A stretch of DNA of 64,000 nucleotides, taken from positions 61,992 to 125,991 of the forward strand of contig CAZKCV010000001.1 in NCBI GenBank assembly GCA_964551605.1, written 5' to 3'. How positions within the stretch are numbered: position 1 is the first letter of the stretch; every line of letters starts with the position of its first letter. The position numbers were made by a program, and so were the translations under genes. The DNA is from an uncultured Gammaproteobacteria bacterium (lineage in GTDB: Bacteria; Patescibacteriota; Microgenomatia; Daviesbacterales; UBA10151). Below are positions 9,822 to 18,319 of the stretch, one piece after another. The notes under the pieces were generated by a model that saw nothing but the letters and a program-made list of their open reading frames with translations, did not search any database and was not told the origin of the DNA.

Positions 9822-9905
9822 GCCGGGGTGGCGGAATGGCAGACGCGAAGGTCTCAAAAACCTTTGGTCCTAAAGATCATGAGGGTTCGACTCCCTCCCC
9901 CGGCA
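9822..9905 (+). tRNA. tRNA-Leu(CAA), class II with long variable arm
   Basis: Acceptor GCCGGGG/CCCCGGC. Anticodon stem AAGGT/ACCTT with loop CTCAAAA (anticodon CAA). Long variable arm. T-arm GAGGG-TTCGACT-CCCTC. Discriminator A. No encoded CCA. Confidence 0.85.
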
Positions 9906-9907
9906 CA

Positions 9908-11266
9908 CTATGCAGCTGCAGCCAATTCTTTAGATTCTTCCTTAGGTTTACCCCTGGTTTTTTCCATACCATAGAATTTAGTCCTATCAGCCCTGAAAAC
10001 CAGGTTTATCTCCCCTGTTGGACCATTTCTGTGTTTTTGAATATCTAATATCACCTGTTCCGGGTGCTCCGGATCTTCCCGCCAGATAAACATCACTACA
10101 TCAGCATCCTGTTCAATTGCTCCCGACTCCCGAAGGTCGGCCAGCTGCGGCTTTTTTATCCCTCTTTGCTCTACTGCCCGGGATAGTTGTGAAATGGCCA
10201 GGACCGGAATTTTTAACTCCCTGGCCAAATTTTTTAAATTCTGGGAGATTTCCGAAACCTCCTGAACCCTGTTATCCAAGTTTCTCCCTTTTATAAGCTG
10301 CAGATAATCTACAATTAAGAATTTCAAACCATGTTCAATTTGTAACCTTCTGGCCTTTGTCCTCATCTCGGAAATGGTAATCCCCGGGGTATCATCTATA
10401 AAAATGGGGGCCTCTGCCAGCTCTCCCATGGCCAGGGACAGCTTATCAAAATCCTTTTCATCAAGCCTCCCGGTTTTTAACTTCCAGGCATCTATGTCAG
10501 CCTGCCCCACCAATAACCTGTCTACCAGTTCTTCCTGGCTCATTTCCAGAGAAAAAATCCCCACCGGCAGTCCGGCAGTAACCGCTACATATTGGGCAAT
10601 ATTTAATGCCATGGAAGTTTTACCCTGGCCGGGGCGGGAAGCCAGGATTATCAAATTGGAATTCTGCATGCCGGCTAATTTATTATCCAAATCCCTAAAA
10701 CCTGTCGGTACACCGCGCAATTTTCCGGAAGATTTTTGTAACTCATCCAGCCTGTCGAAGGATTCAGTCAAGGCATCTTTAATCGGCAAAAAATCCCGGC
10801 TGACATGTTCCTGTGAGATAGAAAAGATACCTGCTTCAGCAGATTCCAGCAGTTCTTCAACGGATTCTCCTTCATCATACGCCCGTTGTATCAAAGCAGT
10901 GGCCTGGGCAATTAAACTCCTCCTGACGGCATGGTCTTTAACAATCCTGGCATAATGTTCAATATGGGCCGAGGTAGGAACAATATTAATTAAGGAGGTT
11001 AAATATGCGGACCCGCCGACTTTGTCATAAACGCTTTTTCTCTTAAGCTCTTCTGTTACGGTAACCAAATCTATCGGTTCCCGCCTTTCAAACAAGCTCT
11101 GAATGGCTTCATAAATAAAACCATGCTGTTCTGAGCGGTAAAAGTAAGTCGGGTGCAGTATTTCCGAAATCCGGACTATTGCATCTTTGTCAATCAGAAG
11201 CGCCCCCAAAAGGGATTGCTCAGCATCAATGTTTTGTGGAGGAAGTTTTGTTATTGGCTGCGCCAT
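9908..11266 (-). CDS. dnaB: replicative DNA helicase DnaB
   Basis: Walker A in LIILASRPGQGKTSMALNIAQ. DnaB N-terminal domain present. 452 aa with no intein. Convergent with the tRNA-Leu gene, 2-bp gap. Confidence 0.9.
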   Translation of the reverse strand: MAQPITKLPPQNIDAEQSLLGALLIDKDAIVRISEILHPTYFYRSEQHGFIYEAIQSLFERREPIDLVTVTEELKRKSVYDKVGGSAYLTSLINIVPTSAHIEHYARIVKDHAVRRSLIAQATALIQRAYDEGESVEELLESAEAGIFSISQEHVSRDFLPIKDALTESFDRLDELQKSSGKLRGVPTGFRDLDNKLAGMQNSNLIILASRPGQGKTSMALNIAQYVAVTAGLPVGIFSLEMSQEELVDRLLVGQADIDAWKLKTGRLDEKDFDKLSLAMGELAEAPIFIDDTPGITISEMRTKARRLQIEHGLKFLIVDYLQLIKGRNLDNRVQEVSEISQNLKNLARELKIPVLAISQLSRAVEQRGIKKPQLADLRESGAIEQDADVVMFIWREDPEHPEQVILDIQKHRNGPTGEINLVFRADRTKFYGMEKTRGKPKEESKELAAAA

Positions 11267-11385: not shown

Positions 11386-12042
11386 CTAACTCTTCCCTAA
11401 CACCACCACCTGTGGCTCTTCCGGCAGCTTCTCTTTTGTAATCGATAACTTCGGGACCGGAACCACCCCTTCAGCTCCCATCTCTTTTAAGAAATTCTCC
11501 ACCCCTTCCAGATCAAATTTTAATCCGTCTATTTTATAGTGCATGGGGATGATAATTTTCGGTTCCAGCTGGGCGACAATTTCCGAGGCCACTTTGGCAT
11601 CAATGGTATAAACCGAGCCCACCGGAATTAAAAGAATATCTGTCTGGCCGATCTGGGCCACCTGTTCTTCTGTTAATTTTGTCTGTCCTAAATCTCCTAA
11701 ATGCACAATGTCTAATCCGTCAAAAAGTATATGAAAAATAGTATTGGCTCCGCGCTCGCTTCCCTCTGAATTATCATGGAATGAGTTAATGCCGGTTACT
11801 ACCACTCCGGCTACTTCATACTCCCCGGGCCTTGAAAAAACCATCGGCCGGCTGCCTTGGGCGCTAACAACCGGAGAACTAAAATTATGATCTTCATGCT
11901 CATGGGAAGTCAACACCATATCGGCCTGCAGATCTTTAGGGAGTTTAAGTCCGGTAAATTCCGGGCTGAATGGATCTATAATGACAGCGGCATTTTTACC
12001 CTTTATCTTAAAGCATGCTTGTCCATACCAATAAATATCCAT
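11386..12042 (-). CDS. MBL-fold metal-dependent hydrolase (UPF0173-like)
   Basis: N-terminal MDIYWYGQACFKIKGK and HEHEDH metal-binding motif. Start moved to the internal ATG at 12042. Confidence 0.8.
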   Translation of the reverse strand: MDIYWYGQACFKIKGKNAAVIIDPFSPEFTGLKLPKDLQADMVLTSHEHEDHNFSSPVVSAQGSRPMVFSRPGEYEVAGVVVTGINSFHDNSEGSERGANTIFHILFDGLDIVHLGDLGQTKLTEEQVAQIGQTDILLIPVGSVYTIDAKVASEIVAQLEPKIIIPMHYKIDGLKFDLEGVENFLKEMGAEGVVPVPKLSITKEKLPEEPQVVVLGKS

Positions 12043-12093
12043 CGCGAAAGATATTAGCAAAAACTTCAAATCCAAACAACCCCTCAAATCAAT

Positions 12094-14724: not shown

Positions 14725-14752
14725 TTGACAACAGAAATTTTTGTGGTATACT
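14725..14752 (+). promoter_or_regulatory. sigma-70-type promoter TTGACA-16-TGgTATACT driving the leader RNA
   Basis: ttgaca at 14725-14730. Extended -10 tggtatact at 14744-14752. Confidence 0.6.
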
Positions 14753-14758
14753 GTATTT

Positions 14759-14940
14759 ACAACTTAATAACCAAAGACGTTTGTACCGAAGTCACGACTC
14801 GGGAGTCGAGAGCCAAATACTCTACGGAAGTTTAACCGTTAAATGAAACAGACGATGTTGGAAAACCAAAGTCGCCACTAAGAGTCATGAACCGTAATGG
14901 TTCGTGGAAACAGGATGGGACCGCGGGAGGTCCTTTTTTT
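14759..14940 (+). ncRNA. candidate T-box riboswitch leader (tRNA-His type) ending in an intrinsic terminator
   Basis: GGATGGGACCGCGG at 14913-14926 matches the T-box core GGGTGGNACCGCGG at 12 of 14. The variable N is G, complementary to discriminator C73 of tRNA-His. The motif overlaps the 5' arm of the terminator hairpin. hisS lies downstream. Confidence 0.4.
14917..14940 (+). terminator. intrinsic terminator (GGGACC-gcgggag-GGTCC + T7)
   Basis: A 5-6 bp GC stem followed by a run of 7 T. Confidence 0.55.
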
Positions 14941-15090
14941 GAGCTCATGAGTATGAGCGCAGTCGAATACCTTCCGTTCCTTGTTCACTATTTGTCATCC
15001 CGGACTTGATCACACGTGTCAAGAGCCAACGGGATCCATACAGATAATGGGCAAAGAACGGGAGGTTTTTTTGTGGTTAGAAAGGAAGAT

Positions 15091-15756
15091 ATGAAATTAA
15101 ATAAATATTTAATAGCAGATGGTAATTCTACCCTTCTAGTTAAGAGTTATAAGTCTTGTGAGAAAGAAACAATCATTAGAAAATACCTGGGAGAGGTTGA
15201 ACAAATAGGATTTATTTCCTATCCAAGGGGAATCCCCAAACTTTTGATGATGGGGAACGAATTAAGTATTAATGCAACTCTTGCTCTGGCTGCAATGCTA
15301 TCCAATAAATCCGGAAGACTACTATCAAGTGGTTATAAAGGATTTGTACAATATGAGAACCAGAAACAATACACGAAAATACGACTAAGCATTGCATACG
15401 AAAAATTCGACAATACCGCGCTCTTAAATGGCATTGGATATGTATTTCTAAAGAGAAATAAACAAATAAACAAAAATTATTTATCCGGCTTATGTTCCAA
15501 ATATAATCTTCCTGCTTTTGGGGCAATTTTCTATAAGAAAAATCGACTAATTCCCTATGTGTATGTCAAACAAACAAATTCCTTATTTAAAGAAACTGCT
15601 TGTGGTTCAGCTAGCATTGTCCTAAACATCTTGACTGGAAAAAAATTTATCACTCAACCAACTGGAGAAATCATTACTGTAGAAAAAAACGGAAATGATT
15701 TTACAATTTCAGCAGAAATAACCAAAAAAATAACGGGAGGTTTTTTAAAACTATGA
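15091..15756 (+). CDS. DapF/PhzF-fold protein (diaminopimelate-epimerase-like) lacking the first catalytic Cys
   Basis: YLIADGNSTLLVK resembles the DapF GNDFVVV start. ELSINATLALAAML occupies the EMCGNGxRCxA site but with Ser in place of Cys. KETACGSASIV matches the second-Cys block GETLACGTGA. SD aaaggaag precedes the ATG at 15091. Confidence 0.4.
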   Translation: MKLNKYLIADGNSTLLVKSYKSCEKETIIRKYLGEVEQIGFISYPRGIPKLLMMGNELSINATLALAAMLSNKSGRLLSSGYKGFVQYENQKQYTKIRLSIAYEKFDNTALLNGIGYVFLKRNKQINKNYLSGLCSKYNLPAFGAIFYKKNRLIPYVYVKQTNSLFKETACGSASIVLNILTGKKFITQPTGEIITVEKNGNDFTISAEITKKITGGFLKL

Positions 15757-16124
15757 CAGAAAGACAGTTTGATATTGCAAAAGTAAATTTCGAATCATTC
15801 AGAAACCTGACTGAAGATATCGTCACAGCCATTATCTTTGATGATGACACCAAAGAGCATTTAATGGTGGGATTTATGAATAGAACAGCTTTAGAAATGA
15901 CTTTGGAACGGAGAAAAGTTGTATTCTACTCGCGTAGTCGCAAAGCATTATGGTTCAAAGGTGATACTTCTGGGAACCGATTCTTATTAAGAAGAATTGT
16001 ACCAGATTGTGACGGGGATGCTTTAGATATATACGTAGAACCATTAGGCCCAGCCTGTCATACAGGTATGAGAACATGCTTTATTGAACCACCTTCTATT
16101 GAAGAAGGTAAAGAAAGGATATAA
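15753..16124 (+). CDS. hisI: phosphoribosyl-AMP cyclohydrolase (HisI, PRA-CH domain only)
   Basis: LMVGFMNRTALEMTLERRKVVFYSRSRKALWFKGDTSGN, DCDGDALD and GPACHTG..TCF align closely with E. coli HisI. ATGA overlap with the upstream gene. SD gggagg. Confidence 0.85.
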   Translation: MTERQFDIAKVNFESFRNLTEDIVTAIIFDDDTKEHLMVGFMNRTALEMTLERRKVVFYSRSRKALWFKGDTSGNRFLLRRIVPDCDGDALDIYVEPLGPACHTGMRTCFIEPPSIEEGKERI

Positions 16125-16131
16125 TAAATAA

Positions 16132-17376
16132 ATGATTAAAGCACAAACATTAAAAGGATTTCGGGATTTTTTACCGGGTGAAGCCCGCAAGCGTCAGTAT
16201 GTCATAAATAAGTTAAAAGGAGTTTTTGAGTCCTTTGGGTTTGAACCTCTGGAAACTCCGGCTCTGGAATATGAAGAAGTGCTTCTCGGAAAATACGGAG
16301 AAGAAGGCGATAAACTAATGTACCGTTTTACAGATAACGGTGGTCGTAAAGTGGCTTTAAGATACGACCAAACTGTACCTTTAGCCAGAGTGGCAGCCCA
16401 GTATCAAAACGAGTTGCCAATGCCTTTTAAAAGATATCAAATCCAGCCTGTCTGGAGGGCTGAGAATACCCAAAAAGGCCGATTTAGGGAATTTTTGCAG
16501 TGTGATATTGATACAGTTGGCACCACTTCTCCCCTTGCAGATGCAGAAATAATTGCTGCTGCCGCAAAATCTCTACAGGAATTGGGATTTAAGAATTTTA
16601 AGATTATTATTAATGACCGTAATATCTTTGCTCTTCTTTTAAAACGTAAGGCTTTCAGTGAAAAGTCCTTACAAATTATCATAAAAACCATGGATAAATT
16701 GAAAAAGATTGGCCGGGAAGCGGTTTTAGATGAAATGATTGAGAAAGGCATCCCTTCTGAGCAGGCCACTTATGCTATCCAAACTATTGAACAAATGCAG
16801 CCGACTGATAATTTACGGCAGATTTTTGATTTACTGGTAAACCTGGGTGTTGATAAATCCAGATTCGAATTTTCCCCCACTTTAGCCAGAGGCCTGGACT
16901 ATTACACCGGCATGATTTTTGAACTGGAAGTTGAAGGTTATACAGCCGGTTCAGTAGCAGGTGGCGGGAGATTTGATAATCTGATTGGTTTATTTACCGG
17001 CAAGAGTCTTCCGGCAGTAGGTGTAGCTTTTGGATTTGATCGCTTAATCGAGGCCATGGACCAACTTAATCTGTTCCCAAATGATTTAGCCACATCCAAG
17101 GTTCTAATAACGATATTTTCTTCTGAGTTAGAAGAAAAATCTATAGAAATTAGTTCTCGCTTGCGCTCGAACAATATAAACTCTGAACTCTGGCTGGATC
17201 CGGAAACTAAACTGGAAAAACAATTAAAATATGCCGACCAAAAAGGCATCCCTTATGTAATTATCATTGGCCCGGAGGAGGCTGAAGCAAACAAAGTAAC
17301 ATTAAAAAATCTGGAAAGCCAAACCCAGGATAAACTGATTACACTTGACGAAGCTATCCGAAAACTGACATCATAA
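16132..17376 (+). CDS. hisS: histidine--tRNA ligase
   Basis: Class II aaRS motifs in FRDFLPGEARKRQYVINKL, RYDQTVPLARV and GGGRFDNLIG. C-terminal anticodon-binding domain present. Confidence 0.9.
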   Translation: MIKAQTLKGFRDFLPGEARKRQYVINKLKGVFESFGFEPLETPALEYEEVLLGKYGEEGDKLMYRFTDNGGRKVALRYDQTVPLARVAAQYQNELPMPFKRYQIQPVWRAENTQKGRFREFLQCDIDTVGTTSPLADAEIIAAAAKSLQELGFKNFKIIINDRNIFALLLKRKAFSEKSLQIIIKTMDKLKKIGREAVLDEMIEKGIPSEQATYAIQTIEQMQPTDNLRQIFDLLVNLGVDKSRFEFSPTLARGLDYYTGMIFELEVEGYTAGSVAGGGRFDNLIGLFTGKSLPAVGVAFGFDRLIEAMDQLNLFPNDLATSKVLITIFSSELEEKSIEISSRLRSNNINSELWLDPETKLEKQLKYADQKGIPYVIIIGPEEAEANKVTLKNLESQTQDKLITLDEAIRKLTS

Positions 17377-17380
17377 TAGT

Positions 17381-18319
17381 GTGAGTTCACAAATTCTTAA
17401 AAGTCCCCTTCCGTATATTGCCCTGATTGTTGCGCATCTCATCTGGGGAGGTAATGTGGTAGTAGCAAAAATTACCTTACAGGAATTTCCGCCGATGACA
17501 CTGGCACTTCTCCGCTTTGCCTTTGCTTCCCTGCTGTTAGCTCCTTTTTTCCTGGCAGAAACGAAAAAAGTAAAAATTGACAAAAAAGATCTGCCTAAGC
17601 TGATTGCCATTGGGGTTTTTATCATCACCTTAAACATAACTTTCTTTTTTGAAGGCATCAAAAGAACTACCGCTATAGATGCCTCTATTTTGGGCCTAAT
17701 CGTCCCCATACTTTCAGTACTCCTGGGCTGGTGGTTTTTGAAGGAGAAAATTTACCTGATCAATCTTGGCGGCATTAGCTTAGGTTTAATCGGAGCTCTG
17801 ATCATCTTAGGTTTGCCTAATTTATTTTCCGGGAGTGCTTCACTGGAAAAAGTCACCGGCAATATACTGATTATTATGGCCTCAATCAGTTGGGTAATTG
17901 GGGCAGTTATATCCCGGAAAATTTTATCTAAATACTCCTCTTTGGTAGTGACCGCTGTAGCCTTCTTAGTTGGGACAATAACCTTTTTTATCCCGGCAGC
18001 TCTGGAATATATTCAAAATCCGGGCTGGATTAGCCAGATTACTACCCTGGGAATTTTGGGCTTAATCTATATGACACTGCTTTCTTCCATTTCTGCATTC
18101 TTCCTGTTAGAGTGGGGCTTGTCTAAAACATCCGTAATTACTGCTGACCTGTTTAAATATATAGAGCCTTTTGTGACTACAACATTAGCTGTCCTTATTT
18201 TAGCTGAGAAGCTATCCAGCCAATTCTGGATAGGAGCTTTGCTGATCGCCATCGGAGCCTACTTGGGAACCCTAGCTAAAGAAGCCCACCATAGACACCA
18301 TAAGGCTCACAGGGTGTGA
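17381..18319 (+). CDS. DMT-superfamily (EamA) transporter, 10 TM
   Basis: Two EamA-like halves with multiple TM helices. 4-bp gap after hisS. Confidence 0.75.
   Translation: MSSQILKSPLPYIALIVAHLIWGGNVVVAKITLQEFPPMTLALLRFAFASLLLAPFFLAETKKVKIDKKDLPKLIAIGVFIITLNITFFFEGIKRTTAIDASILGLIVPILSVLLGWWFLKEKIYLINLGGISLGLIGALIILGLPNLFSGSASLEKVTGNILIIMASISWVIGAVISRKILSKYSSLVVTAVAFLVGTITFFIPAALEYIQNPGWISQITTLGILGLIYMTLLSSISAFFLLEWGLSKTSVITADLFKYIEPFVTTTLAVLILAEKLSSQFWIGALLIAIGAYLGTLAKEAHHRHHKAHRV

What the first reader, a model, noticed from the sequence alone, without database searches (positions are those of the whole stretch)
15091..16124. Stand-alone HisI (PRA-CH) coupled to a DapF-fold protein that lacks the first catalytic cysteine
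The 123-aa protein aligns over its full length with the phosphoribosyl-AMP cyclohydrolase domain (DCDGDALD, GPACHTG). The rest of a histidine pathway is not present nearby, and CPR-like genomes normally lack amino-acid biosynthesis. The upstream 221-aa protein, translationally coupled through an ATGA overlap, has the two-lobed DapF/PhzF pattern. It keeps only the second-lobe Cys (KETACGSASIV); the first-lobe position reads ELSINATLA instead of EMCGNG. PLP-independent histidine racemases belong to this fold. A one-Cys member next to hisI/hisS under a putative His T-box could be a histidine-related isomerase or a binding protein. Either protein may have been recruited to a non-canonical pathway.
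Basis: partly seen in the sequence, partly recalled or inferred. Interest (0 to 1): 0.65.

Follow-up and report, generated by a model that had tools for sequence, protein, structure and literature searches.

The report
Histidine racemase-like gene tied to HisRS
A tiny-genome (CPR/Microgenomates) bacterium keeps, under one histidine-sensing RNA switch, a serine-for-cysteine variant of a histidine racemase, a lone histidine-pathway enzyme (HisI), its histidyl-tRNA synthetase and a transporter; this looks like a previously undescribed histidine supply module for translation.

Summary
Window 15091-15756 encodes a 221-aa protein (X) whose TGA overlaps the ATG of a 123-aa stand-alone HisI (15753-16124). 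hisS and an EamA transporter follow, all behind a tRNA-His T-box.

- **X identity:** X is not a generic DapF. Its nearest relatives by profile and by fold are the cofactor-independent histidine racemases HisR and CntK. Every predicted histidine-contacting residue is kept. Catalytic Cys1 is Ser59 and Cys2 is Cys171.
- **Ser/Cys is a common family state:** about a third of family clusters are Ser/Cys. The change arose at least twice (AGY and TCN codons), is under purifying selection, and is enriched where X is linked or fused to HisRS.
- **Conserved unit:** the conserved pairing is X-HisRS, not X-HisI. It often carries the T-box, a tRNA-His gene and EamA.
- **HisI:** it is catalytically canonical and constrained, but occurs only in a narrow clade. 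Close relatives lack it. One relative carries HisG and a HisE::X fusion instead.
- **Other his genes:** no other his gene lies in the 64 kb.

Best reading: a histidine-starvation-induced module in which X supplies or hands L-histidine (probably from D-histidine) to HisRS. HisI is an accessory early-pathway gene whose pathway context cannot be settled from the window. I rate it a new variant of a known kind, of moderate to high interest.

The parts
14725..14752 (+). Sigma-70-type promoter TTGACA-16-TATACT with TG extension
   Evidence: 11 of 12 consensus matches; lies just upstream of the leader.
14768..14942 (+). tRNA-His T-box leader. It has an ultrashort stem I hairpin (14786-14802) with the specifier CAC (14793-14795) in a 7-nt loop, the T-box core GGAUGGGACCGCG (14913-14925) with UGGG (14916-14919), and a terminator (14917-14934) followed by a U-run.
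   Evidence: Rfam scores it at only 17.9 bits. The leader is conserved in 16 related loci by the model R1, with the window at 175.6 bits. 15 of 37 pairs show compensatory changes, and the loop GUCACGA is invariant. UGGG fits the C73 discriminator seen in the tRNA-His gene of L003. The terminator was found.
14969..15072 (+). Second conserved hairpin (CCUUCCGUUCCUUG...CAAAGAACGGGAGG) plus U7. It buries the GGGAGG Shine-Dalgarno-like sequence just before GTG 15073.
   Evidence: The fold is -44 kcal/mol, z -4.8. The same stem base is conserved by sequence in L021, L028, L034, L040, L063 and L064, directly before the first start codon. Its function is inferred.
15091..15756 (+). X: a HisR/CntK-family, DapF-fold, cofactor-independent histidine racemase homologue of the Ser59/Cys171 type (alternative start GTG 15073).
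   Evidence: Histidine-contact residues N12, E37, E57, N61, E168 and S173 are conserved. dN/dS is 0.17-0.19.
15753..16124 (+). Stand-alone HisI (phosphoribosyl-AMP cyclohydrolase); its start codon overlaps the stop codon of X.
   Evidence: Matches PF01502 at 1.6e-28 and 1zps at 1.6e-23. All invariant residues are kept. dN/dS is 0.13 against L095. Only 3 close relatives exist among 5.8 billion proteins.
16132..17376 (+). hisS, histidyl-tRNA synthetase
   Evidence: TIGR00442 at 404.9 bits against a cutoff of 286.75; the HisZ models score below their cutoffs; Pfam tRNA-synt_His plus HGTP_anticodon.
17381..18319 (+). EamA-family (DMT) transporter, 5 nt after hisS. It is a candidate histidine or D-histidine carrier (inferred).
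   Evidence: PF00892 at 1.6e-46. It lies downstream of X-hisS in 14 related loci and in L005-L008, L090 and L092.

Best explanation
The region is one histidine-starvation-induced operon of a Microgenomates (Patescibacteria/CPR) bacterium: promoter, tRNA-His T-box leader, X, HisI, HisRS, EamA.

**Induction (shown by sequence, mechanism inferred).** Uncharged tRNA-His would pair with the CAC specifier and the UGGG bulge and allow read-through.

**X (shown).** X is a compact member of the HisR/CntK cofactor-independent histidine racemase family. It retains the complete predicted histidine-binding set and the second catalytic cysteine. The first catalytic cysteine is replaced by serine.

**Function of X (inferred).**
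- X binds free histidine and works for HisRS. Most likely it is a still-competent Ser/Cys racemase that converts scavenged D-histidine, possibly imported by EamA, into L-histidine for tRNA charging.
- Cys171 would be the base that removes the alpha-proton of the D-isomer, by analogy with DapF Cys217. Ser59, perhaps helped by Tyr117, would be the opposite-face proton donor.
- Consumption of L-His by HisRS would pull the flux.

**HisI.** It is a catalytically canonical PR-AMP cyclohydrolase that was inserted into the variable slot between X and hisS in a narrow clade. It is an accessory 'histidine supply' gene placed under the same switch, as HisG and HisE are in a related lineage. It is not a mechanistic partner of X.
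For: **Identity of X.**
- NCBIfam HisR and CntK hits.
- Family profile against PDB: HisR 1.6e-17, CntK 2.4e-14, and no canonical DapF below 0.01.
- AlphaFold2 model at pLDDT 95.3, with HisR and CntK as the top Foldseek hits.
- Ser59 and Cys171 sit at the N-termini of the two central helices.
- The HisR residues proposed to bind histidine (Asn18, Glu49, Glu65, Gly68/Asn69, Glu206, Ala210/Ser211; PMC11602996) correspond to N12, E37, E57, I60/N61, E168 and G172/S173. Five of these (N12, E57, N61, E168, S173) are invariant and E37 is nearly invariant in the family.

**Link to HisRS and to tRNA-His.**
- hisS is the commonest neighbour of X (33 loci; 28 of them directly downstream).
- L039, L041 and P0351 are single-ORF X::HisRS fusions.
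- tRNA-His(GUG) genes lie between the T-box and X in L003, L005 and L049.
- The His T-box precedes the operon in 16 loci.

**Ser/Cys is functional rather than decay.**
- Only Ser replaces Cys1 in the 87 database homologues and the 80 genome loci, and in 48 of 134 family representatives, where one Asn/Cys exception was also seen.
- Both AGY and TCN codons occur.
- dN/dS is 0.17-0.19.
- Ser is enriched among hisS-linked genes: 11/13 against 21/62, p=0.0013.
- Ser59 co-varies with Tyr117 (p=4e-7).
- An active natural Ser/Cys 4-hydroxyproline epimerase exists in the same fold (PMC4113996).

**D-amino-acid theme.** Family members are fused to a VanX-like D,D-dipeptidase (Peptidase_M15) and to a GNAT acetyltransferase.

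**HisI.**
- It is canonical and constrained.
- It is sporadic: absent in L096, altered in L090, and replaced by T-box-HisG-HisE::X-HisS in the same synteny in L092.
Against: - No activity was measured.
- The engineered C67S mutant of HisR has greatly reduced turnover (PMC11602996), so Ser59 may make X a very poor racemase.
- D-histidine is not known to be abundant in the environment, which weakens the salvage rationale.
- The direction of flux and the EamA substrate are inferred.
- X scores far below the NCBIfam equivalog cutoffs (36 against 400 bits), so substrate identity rests on conserved residues and context.
- The HisE::X fusion and HisI adjacency could mean a closer tie to the biosynthetic pathway than proposed.
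- The enrichment and co-variation statistics are not corrected for phylogeny.
Confidence: 0.5

Rival explanations
1. X(Ser59) is a catalytically dead pseudo-racemase. It only binds histidine and serves HisRS as a capture, hand-off or regulatory subunit, in the way HisZ (a HisRS paralogue) serves HisG.
For: - The C67S mutation strongly reduces HisR turnover.
- Ser variants are enriched where X is linked to HisRS, and all three X::HisRS fusions are of the Ser type.
- The binding residues are intact.
Against: - Cys171 is retained in every homologue and genome locus aligned at that position and in all but 2 of 134 family representatives, which is unexpected if chemistry were irrelevant.
- Cys1 is replaced almost only by Ser (one Asn/Cys exception).
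- A natural Ser/Cys epimerase is active in the sister superfamily.
- Family fusions to a D,D-dipeptidase argue for real D-amino-acid chemistry.
Confidence: 0.2
2. This is the first reader's idea: X and HisI act together in a non-canonical histidine-related pathway. A truncated HisG-HisE-HisI module would make a PR-AMP- or ProFAR-derived product, with X as the isomerase.
For: - X and HisI are translationally coupled.
- Relatives carry a HisE::X fusion with HisG.
- L090 has a diverged HisI next to an IU nucleoside hydrolase.
- No late his genes lie in the window or within 10 kb either side of these relatives.
Against: - HisI is missing from L096, whose X is 85% identical.
- Most X genes have no his gene nearby.
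- X keeps the full free-histidine binding set.
- The Peregrinibacteria locus L062 has hisS-X next to a complete conventional his operon.
- An otherwise identical contig of the HisG/HisE::X lineage (L094) carries an 8-bp frameshift in HisE.
Confidence: 0.1
3. HisI is simply a relocated member of a complete canonical histidine pathway encoded elsewhere in this genome, placed under the His T-box for regulation. This is compatible with the best explanation for X.
For: - All catalytic residues are kept and dN/dS is 0.13.
- A related lineage puts the committed-step enzyme HisG behind the same T-box.
- Some CPR genomes (L062) hold a full his operon beside hisS-X.
Against: - No other his gene lies in 64 kb.
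- HisI is absent from close relatives.
- Its Asp triad is degenerate in L090.
- It has only 3 close homologues.
- From general knowledge, CPR genomes usually lack amino-acid biosynthesis.
Confidence: 0.35
4. HisI, and HisG/HisE in relatives, are leftovers of an ancestral T-box-controlled his operon that is being lost piecemeal during genome reduction. On this view HisI has no pathway left to serve.
For: - Different lineages keep different early genes in the same syntenic slot.
- There is an 8-bp frameshift in HisE in L094.
- The L090 HisI has degenerate metal-binding motifs.
- L096 has lost HisI.
Against: The window HisI and its 70%-identical relative keep every invariant residue, and dN/dS is 0.13, which indicates ongoing selection.
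Confidence: 0.2

Closest known systems
HisR, cofactor-independent histidine racemase of Fusobacterium nucleatum (PDB 9CR1/9CR6; NCBIfam NF052224; PMC11602996)
   Same: - DapF-like two-lobe fold.
- Best sequence-profile and Foldseek match.
- Same motifs: GN..., EQ(V/I)GF, MMGxE(F/L)xxN, E(T/N)xC(G/A)S.
- All residues proposed to bind histidine are conserved.
   Different: - X is about 45 residues shorter (221 aa against about 265).
- Identity is only about 22%.
- Cys67 is naturally Ser, the same change as the engineered low-activity C67S mutant.
- The genomic context is hisS, a T-box and tRNA-His rather than folate-type genes.
- X would have been excluded from the paper's similarity network by its 250-residue minimum length.
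CntK, histidine racemase of staphylopine biosynthesis (Staphylococcus aureus; PDB 6JIS/6JIW; NF033599; Pfam PF26317 CntK_N)
   Same: Same fold and the same family-level hits. The glutamates proposed to bind the imidazole are conserved.
   Different: No cntL, cntM or metallophore genes are present. The expected flux is D to L, to supply translation, rather than L to D for a metallophore. X has a Ser/Cys dyad.
Natural Ser/Cys 4-hydroxyproline 2-epimerase (B9JQV3, proline racemase superfamily; PMC4113996)
   Same: Related two-lobe racemase fold. [quoted passage not shown]
   Different: It belongs to a different superfamily branch and acts on a different substrate. It is a precedent only, not a homologue at the family level.
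Canonical HisI / PRA-CH (e.g. Methanothermobacter 1ZPS; E. coli HisIE)
   Same: Full-length PF01502 domain. The DCDGD motif, the three Cys, His103 and the W-KG-TSGN motif are all present.
   Different: - It is monofunctional and has no neighbouring his genes.
- It is inserted between a racemase homologue and hisS under a T-box.
- A Gln conserved in all other aligned HisI sequences (AVxQD) is Phe in this clade.
- It scores just under the NCBIfam equivalog cutoff (123.2 against 126).
T-box riboswitch (Rfam RF00230), especially the ultrashort-stem-I ileS T-boxes of Actinobacteria (recalled from the literature, not checked here)
   Same: It has a specifier codon, the T-box core with a UGGN bulge matching the tRNA discriminator, and a terminator. 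It controls an aminoacyl-tRNA synthetase operon.
   Different: - Stem I is reduced to a 4-5 bp hairpin with the codon in a 7-nt terminal loop, so it scores 17.9 bits against the gathering score of 93.
- A second, sequence-conserved hairpin that sequesters the Shine-Dalgarno sequence follows it.
- The host is a CPR bacterium.

Membership tests
HisR/CntK cofactor-independent histidine racemases | DapF-like pseudo-symmetric two-domain fold, with catalytic residues at the N-termini of the two central helices | tested here: met
   AlphaFold2 pLDDT 95.3. Helices 60-69 and 172-182 start right after Ser59 and Cys171. Foldseek gives HisR and CntK at E about 1e-15.
HisR/CntK cofactor-independent histidine racemases | Two catalytic cysteines (HisR Cys67 and Cys209) | tested here: not met
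   Position 1 is Ser59 (AGT). Position 2 is Cys171. The wider X family is mostly Cys/Cys.
HisR/CntK cofactor-independent histidine racemases | Residues proposed to bind histidine (Asn18, Glu49, Glu65, Asn69, Glu206, Ser211 in HisR) | tested here: met
   N12, E37, E57, N61, E168 and S173 are present in X and are invariant or nearly invariant in the family.
HisR/CntK cofactor-independent histidine racemases | Score above the curated equivalog cutoffs (NF052224 400 bits; NF033599 300 bits) | tested here: not met
   36.3 and 33.2 bits. The precomputed Pfam PF26317 CntK_N hit is 'weak' for P0001, and the local Pfam copy gave no hit.
HisR/CntK cofactor-independent histidine racemases | Racemisation of L-/D-histidine | not testable with these tools
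   This needs an enzyme assay.
DapF (diaminopimelate epimerase) proper | Sequence-level membership | tested here: not met
   The family profile finds no canonical DapF in the PDB at E<0.01. DapF appears only as a weaker fold match (1bwz, 4e-9).
HisI / PRA-CH | PF01502 domain above the gathering score | tested here: met
   98.8 bits against a cutoff of 27.
HisI / PRA-CH | Metal and catalytic residues (Asp85/87/89, Cys86/102/109, His103) | tested here: met
   All fall within the 21 invariant columns of alignment A2. The roles of these residues are recalled from the 1ZPS literature.
HisI / PRA-CH | Participation in a histidine biosynthesis pathway (other his genes in the genome) | tested here: inconclusive
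   No other his gene was found in the 64-kb window.
T-box riboswitch | Rfam RF00230 gathering score | tested here: not met
   17.9 bits against 93.
T-box riboswitch | T-box core with a UGGN bulge complementary to the tRNA discriminator plus CCA, a specifier codon, and a terminator | tested here: met
   - GGAUGGGACCGCG is invariant.
- UGGG fits C73 of the tRNA-His encoded in L003.
- CAC is invariant in a hairpin loop whose stem co-varies.
- The terminator was found.
T-box riboswitch | Alternative antiterminator structure and a tRNA-dependent response | not tested
   The antiterminator was not modelled. The response needs an in vitro read-through assay.

The most novel reading that the evidence does not exclude
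A widespread but undescribed CPR module in which a histidine racemase is physically and genetically coupled to HisRS. It occurs as an operon or a fusion, with the tRNA-His gene and a minimal His T-box. The module would let amino-acid-auxotrophic ultra-small bacteria charge tRNA-His from D-histidine, or control the chirality of the histidine pool at the synthetase. A recurrently evolved Ser59/Cys171 (plus Tyr117) catalytic set would replace the classical two-thiol mechanism. In addition, the early his enzymes scattered in the same operon (HisG, HisE, HisI, and a degenerate HisI with a nucleoside hydrolase) could form a truncated module with a role other than de novo histidine synthesis.
Probability: 0.3. 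Interest if true: 0.75.

Novelty: new variant of a known kind. Interest (0 to 1): 0.55.

Why it matters
- **Histidine racemases.** Only two cofactor-independent histidine racemases have been characterised, and the physiological role of one of them (HisR) is unknown. This family gives histidine racemase homologues a clear and testable physiological context: supply of histidine to HisRS under tRNA-His control. The organisms concerned are thought to live by scavenging.
- **Racemase mechanism.** The family offers dozens of natural Ser/Cys and Cys/Cys pairs, plus a co-varying Tyr, for dissecting how PLP-independent racemases can work without the second thiol.
- **T-box biology.** It documents a minimal T-box architecture in Patescibacteria that current Rfam thresholds miss.
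- **The lone HisI.** The gene flags a patchy distribution of early histidine-pathway genes in CPR genomes. This bears on how auxotrophy evolves.

Tried and rejected
- **Local Pfam scan of X** gave no DapF or CntK hit. Family assignment had to come from NCBIfam, PDB profile searches and the predicted structure.
- **Exact look-up of the 221-aa protein** failed because the database gene call starts at GTG 15073. P0001 was used instead. Only short Logan contigs were returned, not the 222,933-bp NCBI contig.
- **Cluster look-up** gave no names or accessions. The organism is therefore inferred only from homologues labelled Woesebacteria, Microgenomates or Patescibacteria.
- **The Rfam T-box hit** was far below threshold. 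It was not accepted until a custom alignment and covariance model were built.
- **'X replaces HisA or HisI'** was rejected. X keeps the binding set for free histidine, occurs mostly without his genes, and co-occurs with a full his operon in L062.
- **'HisI is a decaying pseudogene'** was rejected for the window clade. It may apply to L090.
- **The 70-aa ORF in L090** was tested as a HisE remnant and showed no similarity.
- **Literature searches** for Woesebacteria plus histidine, and for T-box plus CPR, found nothing relevant.
- **Other his genes in the genome** could not be sought.
Full report
**1. What is in the sequence**

On the + strand the window carries the following:
- X, from ATG 15091 to TGA 15756 (221 aa).
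- A 123-aa ORF at 15753-16124, whose ATG overlaps X's TGA (ATGA).
- hisS at 16132-17376.
- A 312-aa ORF at 17381-18319, starting five bases after hisS.

The 123-aa protein is a full-length PRA-CH domain (PF01502, 1.6e-28). It scores 123.2 bits against NCBIfam PRK00051, whose cutoff is 126, and matches solved HisI 1zps at 1.6e-23. In a 27-sequence HisI alignment it keeps all 21 invariant columns, including D85-C86-D87-x-D89, G99-P100-x-C102-H103 and C109-F110. hisS is a genuine histidine-tRNA ligase (TIGR00442 at 405 bits against 287). The last ORF is an EamA-family transporter. A phmmer search of all window ORFs with E. coli HisG, D, C, B, H, A, F and IE found only this HisI.

**2. What X is**

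The local Pfam copy gave nothing useful for X. Other evidence was consistent:
- NCBIfam matched the two histidine racemase models, HisR at 4.7e-9 and CntK at 3.8e-8, both far below their equivalog cutoffs.
- phmmer against the PDB found HisR 9cr1 and CntK.
- A profile of 32 homologues (A1) hit HisR at 1.6e-17 and CntK at 2.4e-14. No canonical DapF scored below 0.01.
- An AlphaFold2 model built on A1 is very confident (pLDDT 95.3, pTM 0.92). Its best Foldseek matches are HisR and CntK (about 1e-15), followed by PhzF and DapF.

The residues that the HisR paper proposes to bind histidine map onto X as follows (PMC11602996):

| Contact in HisR | HisR residue(s) | X residue(s) |
|---|---|---|
| alpha-amino group | Asn18, Glu206 | N12, E168 |
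| alpha-carboxylate | Gly68/Asn69, Ala210/Ser211 | I60/N61, G172/S173 |
| imidazole | Glu65, Glu206 (Glu49 in the CntK model) | E57, E168 (E37) |

N12, E57, N61, E168 and S173 are invariant and E37 is nearly invariant in the family.

The catalytic pair Cys67/Cys209 of HisR corresponds to Ser59/Cys171 in X. X is therefore the natural equivalent of the engineered C67S mutant, whose turnover is 'greatly reduced'.

**3. Ser/Cys is a recurrent family state, not a peculiarity of this gene**

| Set examined | Cys/Cys | Ser/Cys | Other |
|---|---|---|---|
| 87 database homologues | 64 | 21 | none |
| 80 GTDB loci | 63 | 14-15 | none |
| 150 best 50%-identity representatives (exhaustive profile search) | 83 | 48 | 2 Cys/Ser, 1 Asn/Cys |

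Further points:
- Ser is encoded by both AGY and TCN codons, so the change arose at least twice. A Cys/Cys sequence (P0012) sits inside the window's otherwise Ser clade.
- X is under purifying selection: dN/dS is 0.19 against L095 and 0.17 against L096.
- Ser59 co-varies with Tyr at position 117 (GIGY; HisR has GINH): 42/48 against 36/83, Fisher 4e-7, not phylogeny-corrected.
- A natural Ser/Cys dyad in the structurally related proline racemase superfamily is an active 4-hydroxyproline 2-epimerase (PMC4113996).

Together these argue that the Ser form is functional. It may still be a racemase.

**4. The conserved partner is HisRS**

Genomic context was read through the look-up of encoding contigs and in 80 GTDB loci.
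- hisS is by far the commonest neighbour of X: 33 of about 76 non-redundant loci, with 28 immediately downstream and often overlapping.
- L039, L041 and representative P0351 are single-ORF X::HisRS fusions, and all three are of the Ser type.
- Ser forms are enriched among hisS-linked genes: 11/13 against 21/62, p=0.0013.
- EamA follows hisS in 14 loci.
- Other fusions in the family are HisE::X, GNAT::X, HAD::X and X::Peptidase_M15 (a VanX-like D,D-dipeptidase). All of them retain the glutamate set. The dipeptidase fusion, and less directly the acetyltransferase fusion, point to D-amino-acid handling.

**5. Regulation**

Rfam's T-box model scores only 17.9 bits on 14771-14937. The leader is nevertheless strongly conserved in relatives. 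An alignment of nine leaders shows the following:
- A 4-5 bp hairpin whose stem co-varies and whose loop GUCACGA is invariant. It contains CAC, a His codon, at 14793-14795.
- Further co-varying helices, with 15 of 37 pairs showing compensatory changes.
- The invariant core AGGAUGGGACCGCG.
- A terminator with a U-run.

The UGGG bulge fits a C73 discriminator, which the tRNA-His gene in L003 shows. A covariance model built from this alignment finds 16 leaders in 76 loci. All are on the operon strand and upstream of the first gene, including upstream of HisG in L002 and L092. tRNA-His(GUG) genes lie between leader and X in L003, L005 and L049. A near-consensus promoter precedes the window leader (14725-14752).

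After the T-box terminator comes a second, very stable hairpin. Its base is conserved by sequence, it buries the GGGAGG Shine-Dalgarno-like motif, and it ends in a U-run just before the first start codon (window 14969-15072). Its trigger is unknown.

**6. HisI is an accessory insertion in a variable slot**

The window HisI has only three close relatives among 5.8 billion proteins (87%, 70% and 73% identity). Similarity then drops to about 50-59% with generic HisI and HisIE. Gene orders among relatives are:

| Locus or loci | Identity of X to the window's X | Gene order |
|---|---|---|
| window, L001, L091, L095 | 100% (L001), about 80% (L095) | X-HisI-HisS |
| L096 | 85% | X-unrelated 75-aa ORF-HisS (no HisI) |
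| L090 | 70% | X-orf70-HisI*-IU nucleoside hydrolase-HisS-GIY-YIG-EamA |
| L092, L093, L002 | 48% | T-box-HisG(short form)-HisE::X-HisS, then EamA a little further downstream |

In L090 the HisI* copy has DCDGD changed to GCEND and HTG changed to HRN. The L092 group shows the same flanking synteny as the window. L094, an otherwise identical contig of that group, has an 8-bp deletion that frameshifts HisE. The window HisI is under purifying selection (dN/dS 0.13). One position differs from every other HisI aligned: the Gln of AVxQD is Phe in this clade.

No late his gene appears in any of these neighbourhoods. A Peregrinibacteria locus (L062), in contrast, has hisS-X about 2 kb from a complete his operon. 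Whether the window genome has the rest of the pathway could not be determined.

**7. Most likely mechanism**

Shown:
- A promoter, a His-specific T-box and four co-oriented, tightly spaced genes.
- X is a histidine-racemase homologue with an intact histidine pocket and one thiol.
- The X-HisRS association is conserved, up to and including fusion.

Inferred:
- Under histidine limitation, uncharged tRNA-His stabilises read-through and the operon is expressed.
- EamA may import histidine or D-histidine.
- X binds histidine and, as a Ser/Cys racemase, converts D-His to L-His. Cys171 would act as the base on the D-isomer, by analogy with DapF Cys217 (recalled from the DapF literature). Ser59, perhaps with Tyr117, would donate the proton.
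- HisRS consumes the L-His.
- HisI performs its canonical reaction if the rest of the pathway exists. Its presence here reflects recruitment of histidine-supply genes to the T-box operon, not a joint reaction with X.

The main rival for X is a non-catalytic histidine-binding partner of HisRS. For HisI the rivals are a relocated canonical gene, a truncated early-pathway module, or a remnant of an operon being lost.

**8. Comparison with what is known, and novelty**

X works like HisR and CntK, but it fails two membership tests: the two-cysteine dyad and the equivalog score. It is best called a new, compact, HisRS-linked subfamily of histidine racemase homologues. HisI is an ordinary family member in an unusual place. 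The T-box is a minimal-stem-I variant that is invisible to Rfam thresholds. Full-text searches found no description of a racemase-HisRS module or of T-boxes in CPR. The HisR paper's similarity network excluded proteins under 250 residues. Overall this is a new variant of a known kind, with testable consequences.

Noticed in passing
window 14969-15072; also L021 9938-9992, L028 5161-5212, L064 9436-9496: A second, very stable hairpin lies between the T-box terminator and the first start codon. Its base is conserved by sequence (CCUCUCGUUCCUU...AAAGAACGGGAGG). It buries the Shine-Dalgarno-like GGGAGG and ends in a U-run. It may be a second terminator or a translational sequestrator; what opens it is unknown.
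   Followed up: partly
L003 9490-9564; L005 9441-9514; L049 9877-9949: A tRNA-His(GUG) gene is embedded between the His T-box leader and X in three related lineages. There the tRNA sensed by the switch is itself encoded downstream of the switch.
   Followed up: partly
L039 1816-3753; L041 2058-3989; protein P0351: Natural single-ORF fusions of the racemase homologue to the N-terminus of HisRS (about 645 aa). All are of the Ser type at catalytic position 1.
   Followed up: yes
L090 768-2324 and 3591-3881: In a relative whose X is 70% identical, the slot holds a 70-aa ORF and a HisI with degenerate metal motifs (GCEND, HRN). An inosine-uridine nucleoside hydrolase follows that HisI. A small GIY-YIG (homing-endonuclease-like) gene follows hisS, which hints at mobile-element activity at this locus.
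   Followed up: partly
L092 2849-5902 (also L093, L002); L094 about 2500: A related lineage with the same flanking synteny has T-box-HisG(short, 202 aa)-HisE::X-HisS. Short-form HisG normally needs HisZ, a HisRS paralogue (from general knowledge), and here only HisRS is adjacent. The otherwise identical contig L094 carries an 8-bp deletion that frameshifts the HisE part.
   Followed up: partly
15 GTDB loci, e.g. L073 6940-7356: Where X is not next to hisS, a Trp-repressor-family (PF01371) gene is a recurrent upstream neighbour. This suggests protein-based rather than T-box regulation in those lineages.
   Followed up: no
proteins P0437, P0438, P0331, P0334: Other fusions occur in the family: X::Peptidase_M15 (VanX-like D,D-dipeptidase), GNAT::X and HAD::X. 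All keep the glutamate triad and Cys/Cys.
   Followed up: partly
window 15433-15435 (Tyr117 of X): Tyr at the GIGY motif (HisR has GINH) co-varies with the Ser59 state across the family: 42/48 against 36/83, p=4e-7, uncorrected for phylogeny. It is a candidate compensating active-site residue.
   Followed up: partly
window 15834-15836 (Phe28 of HisI): The Gln conserved in all other aligned HisI sequences (AVxQD motif) is Phe in the window clade (IIFDD). The consequence is unknown.
   Followed up: no
window 9822-11266 and 11386-12087: The tRNA-Leu(CAA), dnaB and metallo-beta-lactamase-fold genes upstream are syntenic with several related Microgenomates loci (L005, L007; partly L092). This confirms the lineage and the stable chromosomal setting of the operon.
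   Followed up: no
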